A stretch of DNA of 64,000 nt. Source: Planctomycetota bacterium (GTDB lineage Bacteria; Planctomycetota; UBA8108; SXIK01). The stretch lies in NCBI GenBank assembly GCA_965223265.1, contig OZ244999.1, positions 2,048,001 to 2,112,000 of the forward strand. The letters run 5' to 3'. The translations under genes and the position numbers were made by a program. The notes below the pieces were generated by a model. That model had not been told where the DNA came from. It saw only the letters and a list, made by a program, of their open reading frames with translations, and ran no database searches. Positions 9,088 through 14,592 of the stretch are shown in pieces. Numbering within the stretch: the stretch's first letter is position 1; the number at the start of each line of letters is the position of its first letter.

Positions 9088-11490
9088 TCAGGCGTCACAA
9101 GTGAGCTCATCCGGGGTCGGATCGTCACCGGCACTGGGATAGGGTGCCGCGGGCGGTTCTTGACCGCCGAACAGAAAAAGAAGAAGAGCGATCGGATCTG
9201 ACACGTTCAGCTGTCCATCGTCGTTGACGTCGGCTGCTTTTTGGCACTGCATGGGACCGGAAACGAAGAGATGCCGCAGTGTTCTCACCGCGTCGTTGAG
9301 ACTGAGGGTTCCGTCGAGGTCGGCGTCGCCACGAATGAATCCGCCGAAGCGAAGGCCCCATGAAGAGACGGTGGCTGGATCCAAGAAGTCACCATTGCTG
9401 ATTTCCAGGCTCCAGACCCCGGCGATCGGTTCACCTGCAAGGGACTGCAAACGACGCGACGAGGCGTCGTCGGCGCCGAAAATAAATGGAGGCGACGATG
9501 CGCCGAAACTGCTCTGTTGTAGCTGTACTCGAGTGCCAGTAGGCGACTGAAGTGTCATCTCTAAGCCGAAGGGAAAGTTGTGGACGACGTCGACGTAGAC
9601 TTGGATTGGCCGACTCGGGTGCGCAGCTGTCTGGATGTTGCCGGTGCGATCCAGCAGCACCTTGAGGGTTCGCGTTGTCCCAGCTGTAATCACGACATTC
9701 GGCGCGAAGCGCACCGAGTGAAACCACGACAGGCTGAGACGTGAGTTCAGAAATCCTCGTCGCCCGAAAACTCGCTGAAGTAGTTCGGCGTTCGAGCCCG
9801 CGTTCAGAGCCTGGTCGGCTTGAATGACTGCATCAGCGGCGTCGCGAAATGACGCGTTGTTGGACAGAAAGAAGTGGCTTTGAAAGACAAGACGAAGAGT
9901 CTCGTTCCGACCCAGCTCGGTGAATATCTGCCAAAGGGACGCCGACCACATTTCTCCATCGGCGTGTGGCTCGCCAACGAGTGCTTCGGGATACTCCTTC
10001 TCTGAGTCGAGGCGACGGATGCACGGTACGTCGAGGAAATCCTCCAAACCGCGGCTCACCCAATCGGCTAGGCAGAGGTCGCCGAATCCATCGCTGAACT
10101 CGGCCAAGTACGCGGCGGCAAAAAAGTCGGACCATCCTTCGCCAATGGCGAACGTCTCGAAGGATTCGAAGGTCGCTCCGAAGTTCGGAATCTGATTCTC
10201 CTGGGTCGCATGGCCGTACTCGTGGATGATGACTTCGGCATCTTCGGCGAAGTCGACCCCACCCGAGCCAAATGCCATCGCGCCGCGTCCGGGTGTGTCA
10301 AAACTCGGTTCGAAGAAAGCCTGGGGGTCCTCGTATGGGATCCCGGGGGGCTGTGAGTTGGCGAAAGCCGCGATTGGCCAGTTGGCGATGTCGCCGAACC
10401 CGAGCGACTGAATGAAGCGCTGCACGGAATCGATGTGATAGTAAATCATCACTTCTTCGAAGCCATCGTGGTCGCGGCGGAACGGAAAGTCGAGGCGCAC
10501 GCGCCGTACCGCGTTGGGAGTTGATGTGGTGTCAACGAATTCGCCGGCGCAGCCGCCGCTGCCGTCGAGGCCGCGAAGCGCGACGTCTGCATACGCTTCA
10601 TCGGGCACGGCGGACGCGTCGTCGTCGTTATCCTCGAGACTCGGATTCTTCAGCGCCACGACTGGGTTGACGAGAAATACGCGTCCCGTTCCGTCACGTG
10701 CTTCGCCGGGGCCGTATCGCAGTCGGTCAGTCGTCGAGAGCAGCGCCCCGGAATGGGCATCGATGCGAAGTACGAACATGCCGCTAGGTTTCGATGTCCA
10801 GACCGTCACGGCCCAGGTCAAACGCAGCGGAAGTGGTAGTGCGTGGAGCTCGAGTCTGGCCCTCGGTGGGCGGCGCTGCGCTGCTGCAAGGTTGCGAACC
10901 GCCGCGTCGATCGCTTCCGCTGCGGTCAACGTCGGGGTGACCAGCTGAAGCAAGTCCTGGGGCGGCTCTCCTAAGAAAGGAAGAGTGCTCGTGACACCGA
11001 TCAGGTCGACCGTTCCGTTTGCAGACGAACGATCGACATGGACAACGATCTCTCCGCTCGACAGCGGGACGGCTTCGACGAATGGCTGGAAGCGGACGTG
11101 GGTCGTTCCGATCCCCTGCTGCTCGCTCGTCGCTATCAGAGTCACCCCGTCGTCGGCTCCGCCGACAAGCGGTTGGACCGCTGCGAGGAACGCTTGGCAA
11201 GTCTCGGCGATCGAGCCTGTGAGCTGCAAAGGAATGCGGGCAGTCAAGGCGCGGATTCTCCCGGTGGACTCGTCCCAACGTGTCGACAGCGGTTCGGTTG
11301 AGAGTGGCCGCAGGTTTTCGAGCACACGCTGAGCTGTGCGGGTCGGCGGGCGCAAGAGTACCGGCCGATCTTGCGAAAATGCCCCTTCGGCAAGGATTGC
11401 GATCAAGAGGGTGAGCGGCGCACAGGCTCGTGTGACGCCGGAAACATCCCAACGAGCTGGTCCAGTACGAGCCTTCCCGACAACACTCAT
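9088..11490 (-). CDS. Secreted M36/M4-like zinc metallopeptidase with propeptide, proprotein-convertase P-like domain and dockerin-like tail
   Basis: HEYGH zinc motif, IGEGWSDFFA, PHADGEMW; P-domain-like LQSPTGT..GVWSL..SWGL; tail FIRGDADLDG...DVNDDG...DPTPDELTC. Confidence 0.85.
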   Translation of the reverse strand: MSVVGKARTGPARWDVSGVTRACAPLTLLIAILAEGAFSQDRPVLLRPPTRTAQRVLENLRPLSTEPLSTRWDESTGRIRALTARIPLQLTGSIAETCQAFLAAVQPLVGGADDGVTLIATSEQQGIGTTHVRFQPFVEAVPLSSGEIVVHVDRSSANGTVDLIGVTSTLPFLGEPPQDLLQLVTPTLTAAEAIDAAVRNLAAAQRRPPRARLELHALPLPLRLTWAVTVWTSKPSGMFVLRIDAHSGALLSTTDRLRYGPGEARDGTGRVFLVNPVVALKNPSLEDNDDDASAVPDEAYADVALRGLDGSGGCAGEFVDTTSTPNAVRRVRLDFPFRRDHDGFEEVMIYYHIDSVQRFIQSLGFGDIANWPIAAFANSQPPGIPYEDPQAFFEPSFDTPGRGAMAFGSGGVDFAEDAEVIIHEYGHATQENQIPNFGATFESFETFAIGEGWSDFFAAAYLAEFSDGFGDLCLADWVSRGLEDFLDVPCIRRLDSEKEYPEALVGEPHADGEMWSASLWQIFTELGRNETLRLVFQSHFFLSNNASFRDAADAVIQADQALNAGSNAELLQRVFGRRGFLNSRLSLSWFHSVRFAPNVVITAGTTRTLKVLLDRTGNIQTAAHPSRPIQVYVDVVHNFPFGLEMTLQSPTGTRVQLQQSSFGASSPPFIFGADDASSRRLQSLAGEPIAGVWSLEISNGDFLDPATVSSWGLRFGGFIRGDADLDGTLSLNDAVRTLRHLFVSGPMQCQKAADVNDDGQLNVSDPIALLLFLFGGQEPPAAPYPSAGDDPTPDELTCDA

Positions 11491-11502
11491 GCGTCCGTCG
11501 CG

Positions 11503-11566
11503 CAACTGCTTTGCCTCAACTGCTTTGCCTCAACTGCTTTGCCTCAACTGCTTTGCCTCAACTGCT
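11503..11566. repeat. 14-bp tandem repeat (CAACTGCTTTGCCT) x4 plus 8 bp
   Basis: Perfect units start at 11503, 11517, 11531 and 11545; partial unit 11559-11566. Confidence 0.95.
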
Positions 11567-11849
11567 ACAGCAATCACGCAACGCGGCAGTGACTGCATCG
11601 CTTCTTTGTCCGCATTGTAACCGAAGCGTGAAGCGCAGCATCACGTATTCCTTTGCGGCTGCACGGGGAACATGTCAAGGCGCGGTGACAAGATCAAACG
11701 GACGACGAACCTGTTTTTCGTATCGATGGTCAGGATGTTTCGCGTCCGTGGTGTTGGTGAGCGTCAGTCTTGTGGTTGCGTGGGCGTGCGGGTGGGGTCC
11801 TCGAGCGCCTGCCGCTTCTCTGTCTGATCTTCGTAGAAGGCCACAAGTC

Positions 11850-12280
11850 AACCGAGGAAACCTTGGTTTCCGTCCGAGCGTAGCGAGGTCCTCAGCGCAG
11901 GTCGATCTTTGGACATCGCTGTTCGACCTGCGCCTAGCGAGGCGGCACCGGAGGTCGGTCGCAAAGGGGGCAGGATGGGCGGCCCAGCGGCCGCGGAGCG
12001 TCTGTTGGTGGTATTGCGAACGACTTTCGGTGCTAGAGCAAAGCGCGCCATGCTTCCATTCGCACTCGGGGTGCAGGGTGGGGTCCGAACCAGTGCGGGC
12101 GCTGCATTCTTCGTGACGACGTCGAAGGAAATAGGAGTTCCTTGCAATCAGGAAACGAACCGCAGTCACCCAGACTGGGCATCTGTCACTGTGCTCTATT
12201 TGTCTTGGGGTTGTTTTAGCTTAGCGAGTCACCTCCGAGTTGCGTTTGCTTCGTGTTTCGTAACGGAGAGTGCGAAGAGA
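11850..12280 (-). ncRNA. Candidate bridge RNA / seekRNA in the IS 3' non-coding end
   Basis: Long non-coding end downstream of the IS110 transposase, with hairpins and segments matching the IS end and insertion site; boundaries approximate. Confidence 0.55.
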
Positions 12281-13420
12281 TCAGTTCGCTCCTGCCAACT
12301 GCGACGAGCTTTTCATCTTCCCTGGCGGACGGCGCCCGTGACCAGGAAGTGACTGCTTCTGAGGCGTTCCGTTGGGAAAGGGTTGGTAGTCCTTGTCGTT
12401 ATTCCACAAGTGATGGAGCAGAGCCGCCAGCTTGCGGGCGACCGCGACGACGGCTCGTTTCTTTGCGCCTCGGTTTTTCGAACCTGGAGGGCAAATTCGC
12501 TGCCCGAAACGGCGCAGCTCACTGTCCAGAGCGTGGGGGCCGAGGATGCAATGTGCCGCTGTGACTAAGAGCTTGCGCATGTAGGGGTCACCACACTTGC
12601 TGATTCTCAGTTGCGGATCGCGCCCCGAGGACCGATCGACTATGGGAGTAAGCCCAATGTAGGATCCCACCAGACGACTTTGCTCGAAACGACGGTGATC
12701 ATGCACAGTCAAGACGAACGCTAACGCCGTGAGGGCACCCACGCCGTGTACGGTTCGCAGCCTGTCAGTCGGCGGGTAACTCTTGCACAAACCTTCGATC
12801 TGCTTGTCGAAGTCCGCGATCTGTGCACTGAGGTTCGCGATCTGCTTCAGGATCGCAAGGAGCGCGGGCGCCAGCTCTTGCGGGATCTTGTCTTTGACTT
12901 TGCGCTCGAAGTAGTGACCGTCGCACGCAGGTAGGCAGCAGCCAAAACTCAAGCAGCGCGAGCGCACGTGATTGATCATTTCCGTGCGCTGTTTGACGAA
13001 CAGCATGCGGCTGCGGATCACTGCAATCTCGGCTTGCTGCTTGAGACTGCGCAGGTGCACCAGAGGTAACTCAGCTCGGTCGCGCCATGCTGCTCGTGCC
13101 AGCTTCTTGGCGTCGATGCGATCGGTCTTCTTCTTTGTCTTGTAGATCTCCGGCATCTCGCGCGGATTCACCACCAGCACGGTGTGACCGAGCTTCTGCA
13201 GTAACGCGTTGACCCAGACGGCCTGCGGTCCAGCCTCGATCACGACTTCAGCGTGCTCCCATTGACCGAAGAACTTCTCGAACGTCTCCGCCGAGGAGCT
13301 GATCAATTGATCCTCCAGGAGTTCGCCTTGGGGCGATACGGCAAAAACATGGCTCTTTCTCTTCCCGAGATCGACACCCACGGTAATTTCCCGACGACGA
13401 TTCGTGCTAAACTGACGCAT
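12281..13420 (-). CDS. IS110-family DEDD transposase/recombinase
   Basis: GVDLG, VIEAG and KTDRIDA (DEDD RuvC-like) motifs; Transposase_20 region GVG..TA, YIGLTP..SSG..ISKCG, AVARKLA; AGGAGG RBS upstream of ATG 13420. Confidence 0.95.
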   Translation of the reverse strand: MRQFSTNRRREITVGVDLGKRKSHVFAVSPQGELLEDQLISSSAETFEKFFGQWEHAEVVIEAGPQAVWVNALLQKLGHTVLVVNPREMPEIYKTKKKTDRIDAKKLARAAWRDRAELPLVHLRSLKQQAEIAVIRSRMLFVKQRTEMINHVRSRCLSFGCCLPACDGHYFERKVKDKIPQELAPALLAILKQIANLSAQIADFDKQIEGLCKSYPPTDRLRTVHGVGALTALAFVLTVHDHRRFEQSRLVGSYIGLTPIVDRSSGRDPQLRISKCGDPYMRKLLVTAAHCILGPHALDSELRRFGQRICPPGSKNRGAKKRAVVAVARKLAALLHHLWNNDKDYQPFPNGTPQKQSLPGHGRRPPGKMKSSSQLAGAN

Positions 13421-13662
13421 GGCCAATCCTCCTCTGAGTTTGGGCTCGCCACGAGCGAAGCCCGTGATTTTAACTGCAGGCTTTATAGCACTGCGTGGGG
13501 ATGGATTGGCCTTCTCATCCCATTCTTCGTTTGCTTCGTTTGCATCTGTTCAAGATTCAAGAGATCAGAAGAAGAGTTGAACAAAAGGAAACAAAGTCAA
13601 CGAAGGAAGACCGTCCAAAGGAGCAAGCAACGTCGTGTGTCGTCCGGTCTGGCACACCCCGA

Positions 13663-14592
13663 CCCCGATGTTGCAAAAGAAAAGCGCTTCAAGGCGATGC
13701 GCGATTGCGTGTGCGTGTGCGTGTGCGTGGGAGTGGGAGTGGGAGTGGGAGTGGGAGTGTGCGTGGGAGTGGGAGTGTGCGTGGGAGTGGGAGTGGGAGT
13801 GGGAGTGGGCGTGTGCGTGTGCGTGTGCTGAAAGTAGCAGGCACACTCCCGTGTGCCGTCCGGTCTTGTGTGAGCGTGAGCGTGTGCTGAAAGTAGCAGG
13901 CACACTCCCGTGTGCCGTCCGGTCTTGTGTGTGAGCGTGGGCGTGAGCGTGAGCGTGTGCGTGTGCGTGTGCGTGTGCGAGGGCGTGTGCGTGTGCGTGT
14001 GCGTGTGCGTGTGCGTGTGCGTGTGCGTGTGCGTGTGCGTGTGCGTGTGCGTGTGCGTGTGCGTGGGCGTGTGCGTGTGCGTGGGCTGAAAGTAGCAGGC
14101 ACACTCCCGTGTGCCGTCCGGTCTTGTGCGTGTGCGTGTGCGTGTGCGTGTGCGTGTGCGTGTGCGTGTGCGTGTGCGTGTGCGTGTGCGTGTGCGTGTG
14201 CGTGTGCGTGTGCGTGTGCGTGTGCGTGTGCGTGGGCTGAAAGTAGCAGGCACACTCCCGTGTGCCGTCCGGTCTTGTGTGTGAGCGTGGGCGTGAGCGT
14301 GAGCGTGAGCGTGTGCGAGGGCGTGGGCGAGGGCGTGTGCGTGTGCGTGGGCGTGGGCGTGTGCGTGGGCGTGGGCGTGGGAGTGTGCGTGGGAGTGTGC
14401 GTGGGAGTGTGCGTGGGAGTGTGCGTGGGAGTGTGCGTGGGAGTGTGCGTGGGCGATCGAAGACCGGTTCTCTGCGTCTGGCTCCGTATCTGTATCTGTA
14501 TCTGCCTCCGTATCTGCATCTGACTCTGATTCTGACTATTCTGCCTCTGCCTCTGCCTCTGCCTCTGCCTCTGACGCCGTATCTGCATCTGT
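13663..14592 (+). repeat. Composite repeat locus A: conserved leader, GTGnGn hexamer tract with four 44-bp REP units, TCYGnn hexamer tract
   Basis: Leader CCCCGATGTTGCAAAAGAAAAGCGCTTCAAGGCG at 13663-13696; GTGCGT/GTGGGA/GTGAGC hexamers to about 14454; TCTGCC/TCTGTA/TCCGTA hexamers about 14470-14592. Confidence 0.9.
13827..14279 (+). repeat. Array of four identical 44-bp GTAG-type REP-like hairpins
   Basis: GCTGAAAGTAGCAGGCACACTCCCGTGTGCCGTCCGGTCTTGTG at 13827, 13886, 14085 and 14236; palindrome GGCACAC/GTGTGCC preceded by GTAG. Confidence 0.85.

What the first reader, a model, noticed from the sequence alone, without database searches (positions are those of the whole stretch)
11850..12284. 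Candidate bridge/seekRNA with segments matching the IS end and insertion site
Seen in the 3' non-coding end: CATTCTTCGT (12105-12114) is identical to the left-end junction (13521-13530). CGTTTGCTTCGT (12243-12254) is identical to the junction plus flank (13528-13539). AAACGAA (12153-12159) is the reverse complement of TTCGTTT at the target. CCATTC (12056-12061) matches the IS end (13520-13525). AGATCAG (12278-12284) is the reverse complement of the left flank CTGATCT. Established: IS110/IS1111 elements encode RNAs whose loops base-pair with target and donor DNA. Inference: these are guide segments of an RNA-guided recombinase. The 6-7-nt matches alone could be chance; the 10- and 12-nt matches are harder to dismiss.
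Basis: partly seen in the sequence, partly recalled or inferred. Interest (0 to 1): 0.7.

Follow-up and report, generated by a model that had tools for sequence, protein, structure and literature searches.

The report
Bridge RNA in IS1111-type insertion sequence
The non-coding tail of a single-copy insertion sequence encodes a guide ("bridge" or "seek") RNA of an already described kind, whose loops match the host repeat it sits in; this copy has lost the tip of its right end and is probably stuck.

Summary
All five sequence matches are at the stated coordinates. The element (window 11835-13526, minus strand) is a single-copy IS110-family, IS1111-type insertion sequence sitting in a dispersed host palindromic repeat. 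Its 3' non-coding end holds a 149-nt RNA module (12189-12041, minus strand). A covariance model built only from 39 distant relatives hits it at 84 bits, E 5.5e-21. In relatives the two sides of its internal loop track the flanks of each element, and a junction strand tracks the right-end tip. 12105-12114 is the left-target guide plus core. 12056-12061 overlaps the donor (right-end) guide. It is absent from the closest relative and is not a family feature. AGATCAG overlaps the stop codon. The guides predict the target ACGA-AG-CAAACGAA, a unit junction of a 9-nt tandem in the host repeat. This copy lacks the conserved right-end tip CATGGAAG. No RNA data exist. Verdict: new member of a known kind.

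The parts
11835..13526 (-). The insertion sequence. Core AG lies at 13526-13525, the left end starts at 13524 (AATGGGATGAG...), and the last homologous base of the right end is 11835.
   Evidence: Homology with relative L038 runs from window 13530 to exactly 11835. The body is single copy in the own genome. The flanks join into the host repeat. The core is assigned from the family rule.
12281..13426 (-). DEDD transposase/recombinase gene: 381 aa from TTG, 379 aa from the ATG at 13420.
   Evidence: Pfam PF01548 (E 4.7e-19) and PF02371 (E 1.1e-17). Matches the IS621 transposase structure 8wt6 at E 3.3e-6, with the D / E / DxxD and S-G stretches aligned. D17, E62, D100, D103 and S264 are invariant or nearly invariant among 11 homologues.
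12041..12189 (-). Conserved bridge/seek RNA module, a three-way junction.
   Evidence: Model R1 was built from 39 relatives without the window or L038. It gives 84 bits, E 5.5e-21, full length 1-160, and this is the only hit in the window. In the own genome R1 gives 5 hits: four coincide with the four copies of the second IS found, and the fifth is this one.
12162..12171 (-). P2 stem, 5' strand (GGGUGACUGC). It pairs with 12097-12105.
   Evidence: 98.3% of cells are paired in 39 relatives, and 4 of 9 pairs show changes on both sides. The MFE of the window RNA recovers it.
12150..12159 (-). Right-target guide on the 5' side of the internal loop (UUCGUUUC), plus CU that pairs with core AG.
Evidence: This is the homologous loop side, complementary to core plus right flank in relatives. 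Here it pairs 9 of 10 with AG-CAAACGAA of the host 9-nt tandem (read).
12109..12115 (-). Left-target guide on the 3' side of the internal loop (CACGA plus core AG). It is followed by AAU (12108-12106), which matches the first bases of the left end.
Evidence: This loop side has the same sense as left flank plus AG plus AU in relatives. It matches 6 of 7 here and 7 of 7 in L038.
12097..12105 (-). P2 stem, 3' strand (GCAGCGCCC).
12079..12083 (-). Junction strand J2/3 (CCCCA): a possible right-donor guide that would pair with TGGG of the left end.
   Evidence: Partial covariation with the left-end variants in relatives. Only 4 nt match here, so this is suggestive only.
12062..12074 (-). P3 hairpin (GCAC ... 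GUGC). The inner hairpin present in most relatives is missing here and in L038.
   Evidence: 100% of cells paired in 39 relatives. Alignments.
12052..12060 (-). Junction strand J3/1 (AAUGGAAGC): the left-donor guide, same sense as the right-end tip CATGGA plus core AG.
Evidence: The 7-mer equals the last 7 nt of the right end in 82 of 88 non-redundant relatives, across five variant types. It matches the L038 right end.
12178..12181 (-). P1 stem, 5' strand (UGCC). It pairs with 12046-12049 (GGCG) and closes the three-way junction.
   Evidence: All 4 pairs show changes on both sides among relatives, with 73% of cells paired.
12243..12254 (-). The 12-mer ACGAAGCAAACG. It has the same sense as the predicted intact target (ACGA-AG-CAAACG) and sits in a weak hairpin loop between the stop codon and the RNA module.
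   Evidence: Exact match. The stretch is not conserved in L038. Not a family feature. Function unknown.
13507..13518 (-). Left subterminal inverted repeat (ATGAGAAGGCCA).
   Evidence: Read. It is a perfect 12-bp inverted repeat with the L038 right end.
11835..11843 (-). Right subterminal inverted repeat, truncated: TGGCCTTCT, lacking CAT. The conserved tip CATGGAAG that follows in relatives is missing.
   Evidence: The RE motif was not found downstream of the RNA in the window or anywhere in the element within 2 mismatches.
13526..13539 (-). Best match in the neighbourhood to the guide-predicted target ACGA-AG-CAAACGAA. It now lies in the left flank.
   Evidence: 6 such 14-mers in the genome, and this is one of them. 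All 6 lie in copies of the host repeat by coordinates.
13524..13700 (.). Host dispersed palindromic repeat, right part on the + strand. Its left part is 11776-11834.
   Evidence: Rfam gives only sub-threshold miRNA-like hairpin hits on it.

Best explanation
The region is the right, non-coding end of an IS1111-type member of the IS110 family. It encodes a bridge RNA (also called seekRNA) for the element's DEDD recombinase.

The conserved module (12189-12041, minus strand) is a three-way junction. Stem P2 carries an internal loop. Its 5' side (UUCGUUUC-CU, 12159-12150) pairs with the top strand of core AG plus right target flank. Its 3' side (CACGA-AG, 12115-12109) has the sense of left target flank plus core, so it pairs with the bottom strand. 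Junction strand J3/1 (AUGGAAG, 12059-12053) has the sense of the right-end tip plus core and would hold the donor. J2/3 may hold the left end.

Read this way, the RNA directs insertion at ACGA-AG-CAAACGAA, the junction between two units of a 9-nt tandem (CAAACGAAG) inside a dispersed host repeat. That is where the element sits.

Shown here: homology of the RNA to a family, covariation of stems, and covariation of loop and junction strands with flanks and ends in relatives.

Inferred: the guide assignment in this copy, by homology; that the RNA is made and bound; and the strand-exchange chemistry, by analogy with IS621 and IS1111-type elements.

This copy lacks the right-end tip that its own donor guide should recognise. 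It is therefore probably no longer mobile.
For: Transposase family and catalytic residues.

Element limits and host repeat: single copy; flanks join seamlessly to 22 repeat copies; limits confirmed by L038.

Family-wide RNA. 147 of 149 3' non-coding regions examined carry the conserved 16-mer within 3 substitutions. A stated structure of 19 pairs is 92.7% paired in 39 relatives, with 64 cells changed on both sides against 17.1 +/- 4.0 in shuffles; 0 of 500 shuffles reach it, and slid controls give 26-47% paired. Model R1, built without the window, hits 12189-12041 at 84 bits, E 5.5e-21. In the own genome R1 gives 5 hits: four coincide with the four copies of the second IS, and the fifth is this element.

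Guides. In 71 non-redundant relatives, ends were located by motifs independent of the loops. The longest exact complementarity of the 5' loop side to its own core plus right flank averages 7.0 nt, against 3.3 nt for other loci. For the 3' loop side against the left flank the figures are 6.1 nt and 3.4 nt. J3/1 equals the right-end tip in 82 of 88, across five variant types including core variants.

In the window, the right-target guide pairs 9 of 10 and the left-target guide 6 of 7 with the tandem-unit junction. L038 has two base changes in the right-target guide and a different right flank, to which it pairs 9 of 10 counting one G-U.

The order of segments agrees with IS1111-type seekRNAs: the segment complementary to the top strand lies 5' of the one complementary to the bottom strand (PMC11187229 section 9). 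The AG crossover agrees with ISPpu9 (PMC12288879 section 15).
Against: No RNA evidence: nothing could be learned about expression.

Thermodynamic folding gives no support by itself. The z-score is -0.70 for the 149-nt module and 0.03 for 243 nt, and the MFE does not reproduce P1 and P3.

No sigma-70-like promoter was found.

The right-target guide has a C-C mismatch at the first flank position, in both the window and L038. The left-target guide matches only 6 of 7.

The sequence that the right-target guide fits now lies to the left of the element. The right flank holds only ACGAAG of the expected unit, so the fit needs a further event: an 11-nt loss at the right junction, or an aberrant insertion.

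The donor guide has no partner at this copy's right end.

There is only one close relative (L038). The right-donor assignment is weak.
Confidence: 0.85

Rival explanations
1. One reading: the whole 3' non-coding end (11850-12284) is the guide RNA, and all five matching segments, including the 12-mer at 12243-12254, are guides.
For: All five matches exist. The 12-mer is unlikely by chance, with 0.01 expected in the window. It spans exactly the predicted crossover (ACGA-AG-CAAACG).
Against: The family model starts at 12189. The stretch 12207-12280 is not conserved in L038, whereas 12206-12035 is 81% identical. Among 85 relatives the longest internal copy of their own target upstream of the RNA is 9 nt, no more than with other loci's targets. 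AGATCAG overlaps the stop codon. CCATTC belongs to a motif conserved across phyla.
Confidence: 0.07
2. The 12-mer is a cis-acting target mimic. It is a copy of the target in the 5' leader that can pair with the right-target guide of the same transcript (7 of 8 by eye) and so mask or pre-organise it.
For: Exact 12-nt identity with the predicted target across the core, same strand as the RNA, in a hairpin loop.
Against: It is unique to this element. The MFE folds do not pair it with the guide. The target is a low-complexity tandem, which raises the chance of partial copies. It is not known whether the leader is transcribed with the RNA.
Confidence: 0.05
3. The conserved 3' block acts as DNA or as a plain 3' UTR (a recombinase binding site, terminator or mRNA stabiliser). 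On this view the matches to flanks reflect target sequence carried in the ends, not RNA guides.
For: No expression data. Folding energy is not better than shuffles. IS ends do carry protein-binding sites.
Against: Compensatory changes keep the stems P1, P2 and P3, which is a signature of RNA. The variable loop sides track flanks that lie outside the element and more than 1 kb away. Related IS1111 and IS110 elements have been shown experimentally to need such an RNA (PMC11187229 sections 7-10; PMC11208160 passages).
Confidence: 0.04
4. The right end is intact and simply divergent. On this view the element ends in ...CTTCTACGA, the crossover is at AG, and the insertion was made at ...CAAACGA-AG-ATCAG using the left-target guide only (a half-site event), not followed by a deletion.
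For: The flanks join to a two-unit repeat copy without any missing base if the 7-nt ACGAAGA is counted once, and 10 of 22 copies have two units. A preprint title and abstract seen only in a search listing report half-match recombination by bridge recombinases (10.64898/2026.08.31.748434).
Against: The tip CATGGAAG is kept in L038 and in 82 of 88 relatives, and it is what this element's own J3/1 strand specifies. A half-site event at AG would still leave CATGGA before AG. Three-unit repeat copies exist, 2 of 22, so a full-site insertion followed by loss of 11 nt (CATGGAAGCAA) is possible.
Confidence: 0.25

Closest known systems
IS1111-family seekRNAs (ISEc11, ISPa11, ISKpn4, ISPst6; Siddiquee et al. 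2024, PMC11187229; outline and sections 6, 7, 9, 10, 13 read)
   Same: The long non-coding region lies downstream of the transposase. Subterminal inverted repeats are present, with a short extension at the left end. The transposase carries the GL-P----SG motif. Two short target-matching segments are present, with the one complementary to the top strand lying 5'. No target duplication is needed. Target-derived bases flank both ends.
   Different: The transposase is 379-381 aa, against the 330-350 quoted for the family. Here donor-matching strands can also be assigned in a three-way junction. Nothing has been tested experimentally. This copy's right end is incomplete.
IS621 bridge RNA (Durrant et al. 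2024, PMC11208160, passages on IS1111 read; Hiraizumi et al. 2024, PMC11208158, passages on handshake guides read)
   Same: A DEDD plus serine recombinase. There is an internal loop whose two sides read the two strands of the target around a 2-nt core. A second set of nucleotides reads the donor. Bases next to the core match the other partner, like the handshake guides. Durrant et al. predict bridge RNAs in the right end of 93% of IS1111 elements, with donor-binding nucleotides often in a multi-loop.
   Different: The RNA lies 3' of the gene, not 5'. The order of the guides in the loop is reversed. The core is AG, not CT. The donor guides are junction strands rather than a second internal loop. 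Protein similarity is remote (E 3.3e-6).
ISPpu9 of Pseudomonas putida (Pares-Guillen et al. 2025, PMC12288879; abstract and sections 13, 15 read)
   Same: An IS110-family element inserted in repetitive extragenic palindromes. [quoted passage not shown]
   Different: ISPpu9 is modular, with internal end-like boxes (B-A') and a separately mobile sRNA gene. No internal end-like box was found here. The internal 12-mer here resembles the target, not the ends.

Membership tests
IS110 family (DEDD transposase) | N-terminal DEDD (RuvC-like) domain PF01548 and C-terminal PF02371 domain | tested here: met
   Both are above the curated cut-offs: 69.1 bits against 29, and 64.6 bits against 21.3.
IS110 family (DEDD transposase) | Catalytic D, E, D, D and the S of the G--P----SG motif | tested here: met
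   D17, E62, D100, D103 and GLTPIVDRSSG are present. They are invariant or nearly invariant in 11 homologues and aligned to the corresponding stretches of IS621.
IS1111 subgroup | Subterminal inverted repeats of 7-17 bp | tested here: met
   ATGAGAAGGCCA at the left end. There is a perfect 12-bp partner in L038, and 9 of 12 bp remain at this copy's right end.
IS1111 subgroup | Longer non-coding region downstream of the transposase gene | tested here: met
   446 nt lie downstream (12280-11835), against about 100 nt upstream (13524-13427).
IS1111 subgroup | Transposase of 330-350 aa (range given in PMC11187229 section 6) | tested here: not met
   379-381 aa. The excess is a C-terminal tail shared with the closest homologues. 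Relatives at 42-50% identity are 345-365 aa.
Bridge RNA / seekRNA | Conserved structured RNA in the non-coding end, supported by covariation | tested here: met
   Rfam 15 holds no matching family: there were only sub-threshold miRNA-like hits, on the host repeat.
Bridge RNA / seekRNA | Loop segments complementary to both strands of the target around a shared core, covarying with targets across relatives | tested here: met
   Family. Window: 9 of 10 and 6 of 7 to ACGA-AG-CAAACGAA. L038: 9 of 10 (one G-U) and 7 of 7.
Bridge RNA / seekRNA | Segment matching the donor (element end plus core) | tested here: inconclusive
   J3/1 equals the right-end tip in 82 of 88 relatives and in L038. The tip is missing from this copy, so the pairing cannot form here.
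Bridge RNA / seekRNA | RNA is produced, binds the recombinase and is needed for transposition | not testable with these tools
   No run on record as RNA holds the stretch.

The most novel reading that the evidence does not exclude
This element carries, in the leader just upstream of its bridge RNA, an exact 12-nt copy of its own target across the crossover point (12254-12243). If this is co-transcribed, it would act as a built-in target mimic that pairs with the right-target guide, gating or pre-organising the guide loop. Such a regulatory layer has not been described for bridge or seek RNAs in the papers read here. Together with the intact recombinase gene and RNA beside a crippled right end, it could mark an element on its way to a host-kept, non-mobile RNA-guided recombinase acting on the dispersed repeat family.
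Probability: 0.05. Interest if true: 0.55.

Novelty: new member of a known kind. Interest (0 to 1): 0.3.

Why it matters
It adds a worked example of an IS1111-type bridge RNA from an environmental, GC-rich 9-Mb genome. Every part is assigned by comparison with about 100 relatives from many phyla: target guides in the P2 loop, a donor guide in a junction strand, and an AG core.

The family-level rule found on the way could be used to read the targets of such elements directly from sequence. The rule is that the loop sides read the flanks, J3/1 reads the right-end tip, and core variants AA and CAG change in all four places together.

For the window itself the result is ordinary: a known kind of mobile element, probably immobilised.

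Tried and rejected
Rfam scan of 11500-13800 at E up to 10: no bridge-RNA family, only sub-threshold miRNA-like hits on the palindromic host repeat.

Thermodynamic folding: z -2.23 for the 471-nt non-coding end, -0.70 for the 149-nt module and 0.03 for 243 nt. This is not used as support.

Promoter and terminator scan of 11780-13600: 0 promoter-like sites, and 3 terminator-like sites against 1.9 expected. Nothing usable.

Closer relatives: none at E 1e-90 or better in 400 other genomes of the phylum, and none in 60 relatives at E 1e-30 or better beyond two remote ones.

Sequencing runs: no RNA holder listed. Laying X1, X5, X6 and X7 (all Logan contigs) gave the following. X1 reproduces 11805-13623 without a difference; it may be the source organism and is not independent. 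The joints from 11825 or 11834 to 13556 are other copies of the host repeat, not excision products. X5 holds a 246-nt contig (11865-12110) with 1 difference. X6 holds a relative about 90% alike, with a different left flank after 13528. No contig listed crossed the right junction in a relative, so the right-end question stays open.

Internal copies of the target in relatives: none beyond control.

ISPpu9-like modular structure (internal end-like boxes): none within 1-2 mismatches.

Right-donor guide in J2/3: only partial covariation, kept as a suggestion.

Assigning the 7-nt direct repeat ACGAAGA as a target duplication or a 7-nt core: rejected. In L038 the left ACGAAGA is followed by the same left end, but the right end continues CATGGAAG-CACACG. 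In relatives the shared core is 2 nt.

Supplementary files of the papers were not opened. Supplementary Table 5 of PMC11208160 and the supplementary figures of PMC11187229 may already list a model or target logos for this clade.

Papers known only from search listings: 10.64898/2026.08.31.748434, PMC13626964 and 10.1101/2025.10.25.684509.

The chance estimates for the guide matches (about 1e-3 each) are my own arithmetic, not a tool result.
Full report
THE OBSERVATION

The five matches are real and at the stated coordinates. The 10-mer CATTCTTCGT and the 12-mer CGTTTGCTTCGT each occur exactly twice in the 64-kb window. Expected counts are 0.19 and 0.01, and 1 of 100 and 0 of 100 shuffles reach two copies. 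The 6-7-mers are not individually beyond chance: one search lists 17 matches of 6 nt or more to a 47-nt target site.

WHAT THE ELEMENT IS

The ORF 13426-12281 (minus strand) carries PF01548 and PF02371. It keeps the catalytic D17, E62, D100, D103 and the GLTPIVDRSSG motif.

The body is single copy in the 9.18-Mb genome. The flanks belong to a dispersed repeat. Joining the flanks, with the 7-nt TCTTCGT counted once, gives a sequence that aligns without a break to 22 uninterrupted copies of a palindromic repeat of about 150 bp. These copies carry one (10 copies), two (10) or three (2) units of a 9-nt tandem, which reads CAAACGAAG in the orientation of the transposase.

The only close relative for which DNA could be obtained is L038, at 73% protein identity, on a metagenome contig. 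It is homologous from window 13530 to exactly 11835. That fixes the right limit and shows that ACGAAGA precedes the left end in both elements.

A FAMILY-WIDE RNA

I fetched 160 loci that encode relatives at 40-49% protein identity, from many phyla, plus four copies of a second IS in the own genome. Of the 149 3' non-coding regions that could be examined, 147 hold the motif GAGTGCGAATGGAAGC within three substitutions.

The shared architecture is a three-way junction:
- P1 closes it.
- P2 (GGGYGACUGC paired with GCAGCRCCC) encloses an internal loop and a variable inner hairpin.
- P3 (GCAC paired with GUGC) usually encloses a hairpin that is missing in the window and in L038.

On an alignment of 39 relatives, without the window or L038, a stated structure of 19 pairs is 92.7% paired. 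It has 64 cells changed on both sides, against 17.1 +/- 4.0 in shuffles; 0 of 500 shuffles reach it. Slid controls give 26-47% paired.

A covariance model built from that alignment (R1) hits the window once, at 12189-12041 on the minus strand, full length, 84 bits, E 5.5e-21. It hits L038 at 88 bits. In the own genome it gives five hits. Four coincide with the four copies of the second IS found, and the fifth is this element.

Rfam 15 has no matching family. Free-energy z-scores are unremarkable, so the case rests on comparison, not on thermodynamics.

THE GUIDE RULE

Multi-copy relatives define ends and flanks exactly.
- The left junction reads [left flank]-AG-ATG(G/A)(G/A)ATGAG followed by the inverted repeat.
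- The right junction reads [inverted repeat ending CTCAT](G/A)GA-AG-[right flank].
- The 5' side of the P2 loop is complementary to AG plus the right flank.
- The 3' side has the sense of left flank plus AG plus AU.

I located ends by their conserved motifs and loops by their conserved stems, so the two were found independently. In 71 non-redundant loop pairs, taken from 103 loci with both ends found out of 149 parsed of 167 sources, the longest exact match of the 5' side to its own right flank averages 7.0 nt, against 3.3 nt for other loci. For the 3' side and the left flank the figures are 6.1 nt and 3.4 nt.

The junction strand J3/1 equals the last seven bases of the right end, core included, in 82 of 88 non-redundant cases. 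These span five variant types: ATGGAAG, ATAGAAG, ATGGCAG, ATAGAAA and ATGGAAA. The six exceptions include three loci whose RNA was mis-parsed by my patterns. Where the core is AA or CAG, it changes in the loop, in J3/1 and at both junctions together.

J2/3 shows only partial covariation with the left end.

This layout agrees with what is published:
- The segment complementary to the top strand lies 5' of the one complementary to the bottom strand, as in IS1111-type seekRNAs (PMC11187229 section 9).
- Donor-binding nucleotides sit in a multi-loop, as in many IS1111 elements (PMC11208160 passages).
- Bases beside the core match the other partner, like the handshake guides of IS621 (PMC11208158 passages).
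- Crossover takes place at AG, as in ISPpu9 (PMC12288879 section 15).

APPLYING THE RULE TO THE WINDOW

- The 5' loop side UUCGUUUC-CU (12159-12150) predicts AG followed by GAAACGAA. The host tandem offers AG-CAAACGAA, which gives 9 of 10.
- The 3' side CACGA-AG (12115-12109) predicts a left flank ending CACGA-AG. The host has AACGA-AG, which gives 6 of 7.
- L038 differs at two bases of the right-target guide (UUUGUGUC) and has the right flank CACACGAA, to which it pairs 9 of 10 counting one G-U. Its left flank CACGA-AG fits 7 of 7.
- Both elements share a C-C mismatch at the first base of the right flank.

CATTCTTCGT (12105-12114) covers the left-target guide, the core and the conserved AAU. 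CCATTC (12056-12061) overlaps J3/1, the donor guide, whose real partner in relatives is the right-end tip rather than the left end.

The predicted 14-mer target occurs six times in the genome, one of them beside this element, and the other five sites are unoccupied.

THE RIGHT END

L038 and the family end in ...GGCCTTCTCATGGA-AG. The window reads ...GGCCTTCT-ACGAAG-ATCAG. No right-end tip motif is present anywhere in the element.

The expected junction after insertion between two tandem units would be CTTCT-CATGGAAG-CAAACGAAG-ATCAG. The observed sequence equals this minus 11 nt (CATGGAAGCAA). A three-unit repeat copy as the original site is plausible, since 2 of 22 copies have three units.

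The alternative is an aberrant, half-site event with a divergent tip. I cannot decide between the two.

Either way, the strand that J3/1 should read and 3 bp of the inverted repeat are gone. This fits the single copy and the five empty target sites. A Logan contig from run X1 reproduces 11805-13623 without a difference. It may come from the same organism, and so only argues against a local assembly slip.

THE 12-MER

ACGAAGCAAACG (12254-12243) equals the predicted target across the crossover. It lies between the stop codon and the RNA module, in the loop of a weak hairpin.

The stretch is not conserved in L038. In 85 relatives the longest internal copy of the element's own target upstream of the RNA is 9 nt, which is the same distribution as with unrelated targets. 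There are no internal end-like boxes of the ISPpu9 kind.

It may be chance helped by the repetitive target, a relic, or a cis target mimic. I give the last about 5%.

WHAT COULD NOT BE DONE

- Expression could not be assessed.
- Closer relatives were not found in 400 genomes of the phylum.
- The contig of the 87%-identical protein could not be fetched.
- Supplementary files were not opened.

VERDICT

This is a new member of a known kind, an IS1111-type bridge/seek RNA, in a copy that has probably lost mobility.

Noticed in passing
window 11776-11834 and 13524-13700; own genome, 22 further copies (for example G000:C1:5573150-5573332): A dispersed palindromic host repeat of about 150 bp with a variable number (1-3) of a 9-nt tandem unit (TTCGTTTGC on the + strand). 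It is the target of the insertion sequence. Rfam gives only sub-threshold miRNA-like hairpin hits on it.
   Followed up: partly
L198:1750-2347 (G000:C1:403572-404169): A perfect 198-bp tandem triplication (3.0 copies, 100% matches) at the right end of another IS copy of the same RNA family. From the motif positions, each unit appears to end in the right-end tip, and each starts with AG followed by what looked like the right flank. This could be a product of repeated recombination between the right end and an internal site.
   Followed up: partly
G000:C1:402205-403257, 5605316-5606359, 5607035-5608087, 5870579-5871622 (L034-L037, L198-L201): Four copies of a second IS of the same family (43-44% protein identity to the window's transposase). 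Three copies carry the canonical right-end motif, one of them in triplicate; none was found beside the copy at 5605316-5606359. All four have an RNA hit of 91 bits with model R1. Two are adjacent to each other (5605-5608 kb).
   Followed up: partly
G000:C1:1962323 and 4355574: Two further exact copies of the 16-nt canonical right-end motif (GGCCTTCTCATGGAAG). No transposase or RNA-model hit was reported beside them. They may be solo ends.
   Followed up: no
window 13706-14455 and 11503-11566: Long hexamer arrays (GTGGGA, then TGTGCG for about 90 copies), interspersed with 59-nt units, lie directly beside the host repeat. A perfect 14-nt tandem (4.6 copies) lies at 11503-11566, overlapping the start (N-terminal end) of the neighbouring 805-aa minus-strand ORF (9088-11505).
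   Followed up: no
L048, L078 (core AA); L043, L058, L088, L129 (tip ATGGCAG): Relatives in which the crossover dinucleotide or the base before it differs. The change is seen together in the loop, in the junction strand J3/1 and at both element junctions. These are natural examples of a reprogrammed core.
   Followed up: partly
runs X5 and X6 laid on window 11700-13650: A plastic-metagenome run holds a 246-nt contig with one difference from 11865-12110. A sediment-metagenome run holds a relative about 90% alike whose left flank after 13528 differs from the window's. So near relatives of this element exist in other samples.
   Followed up: partly
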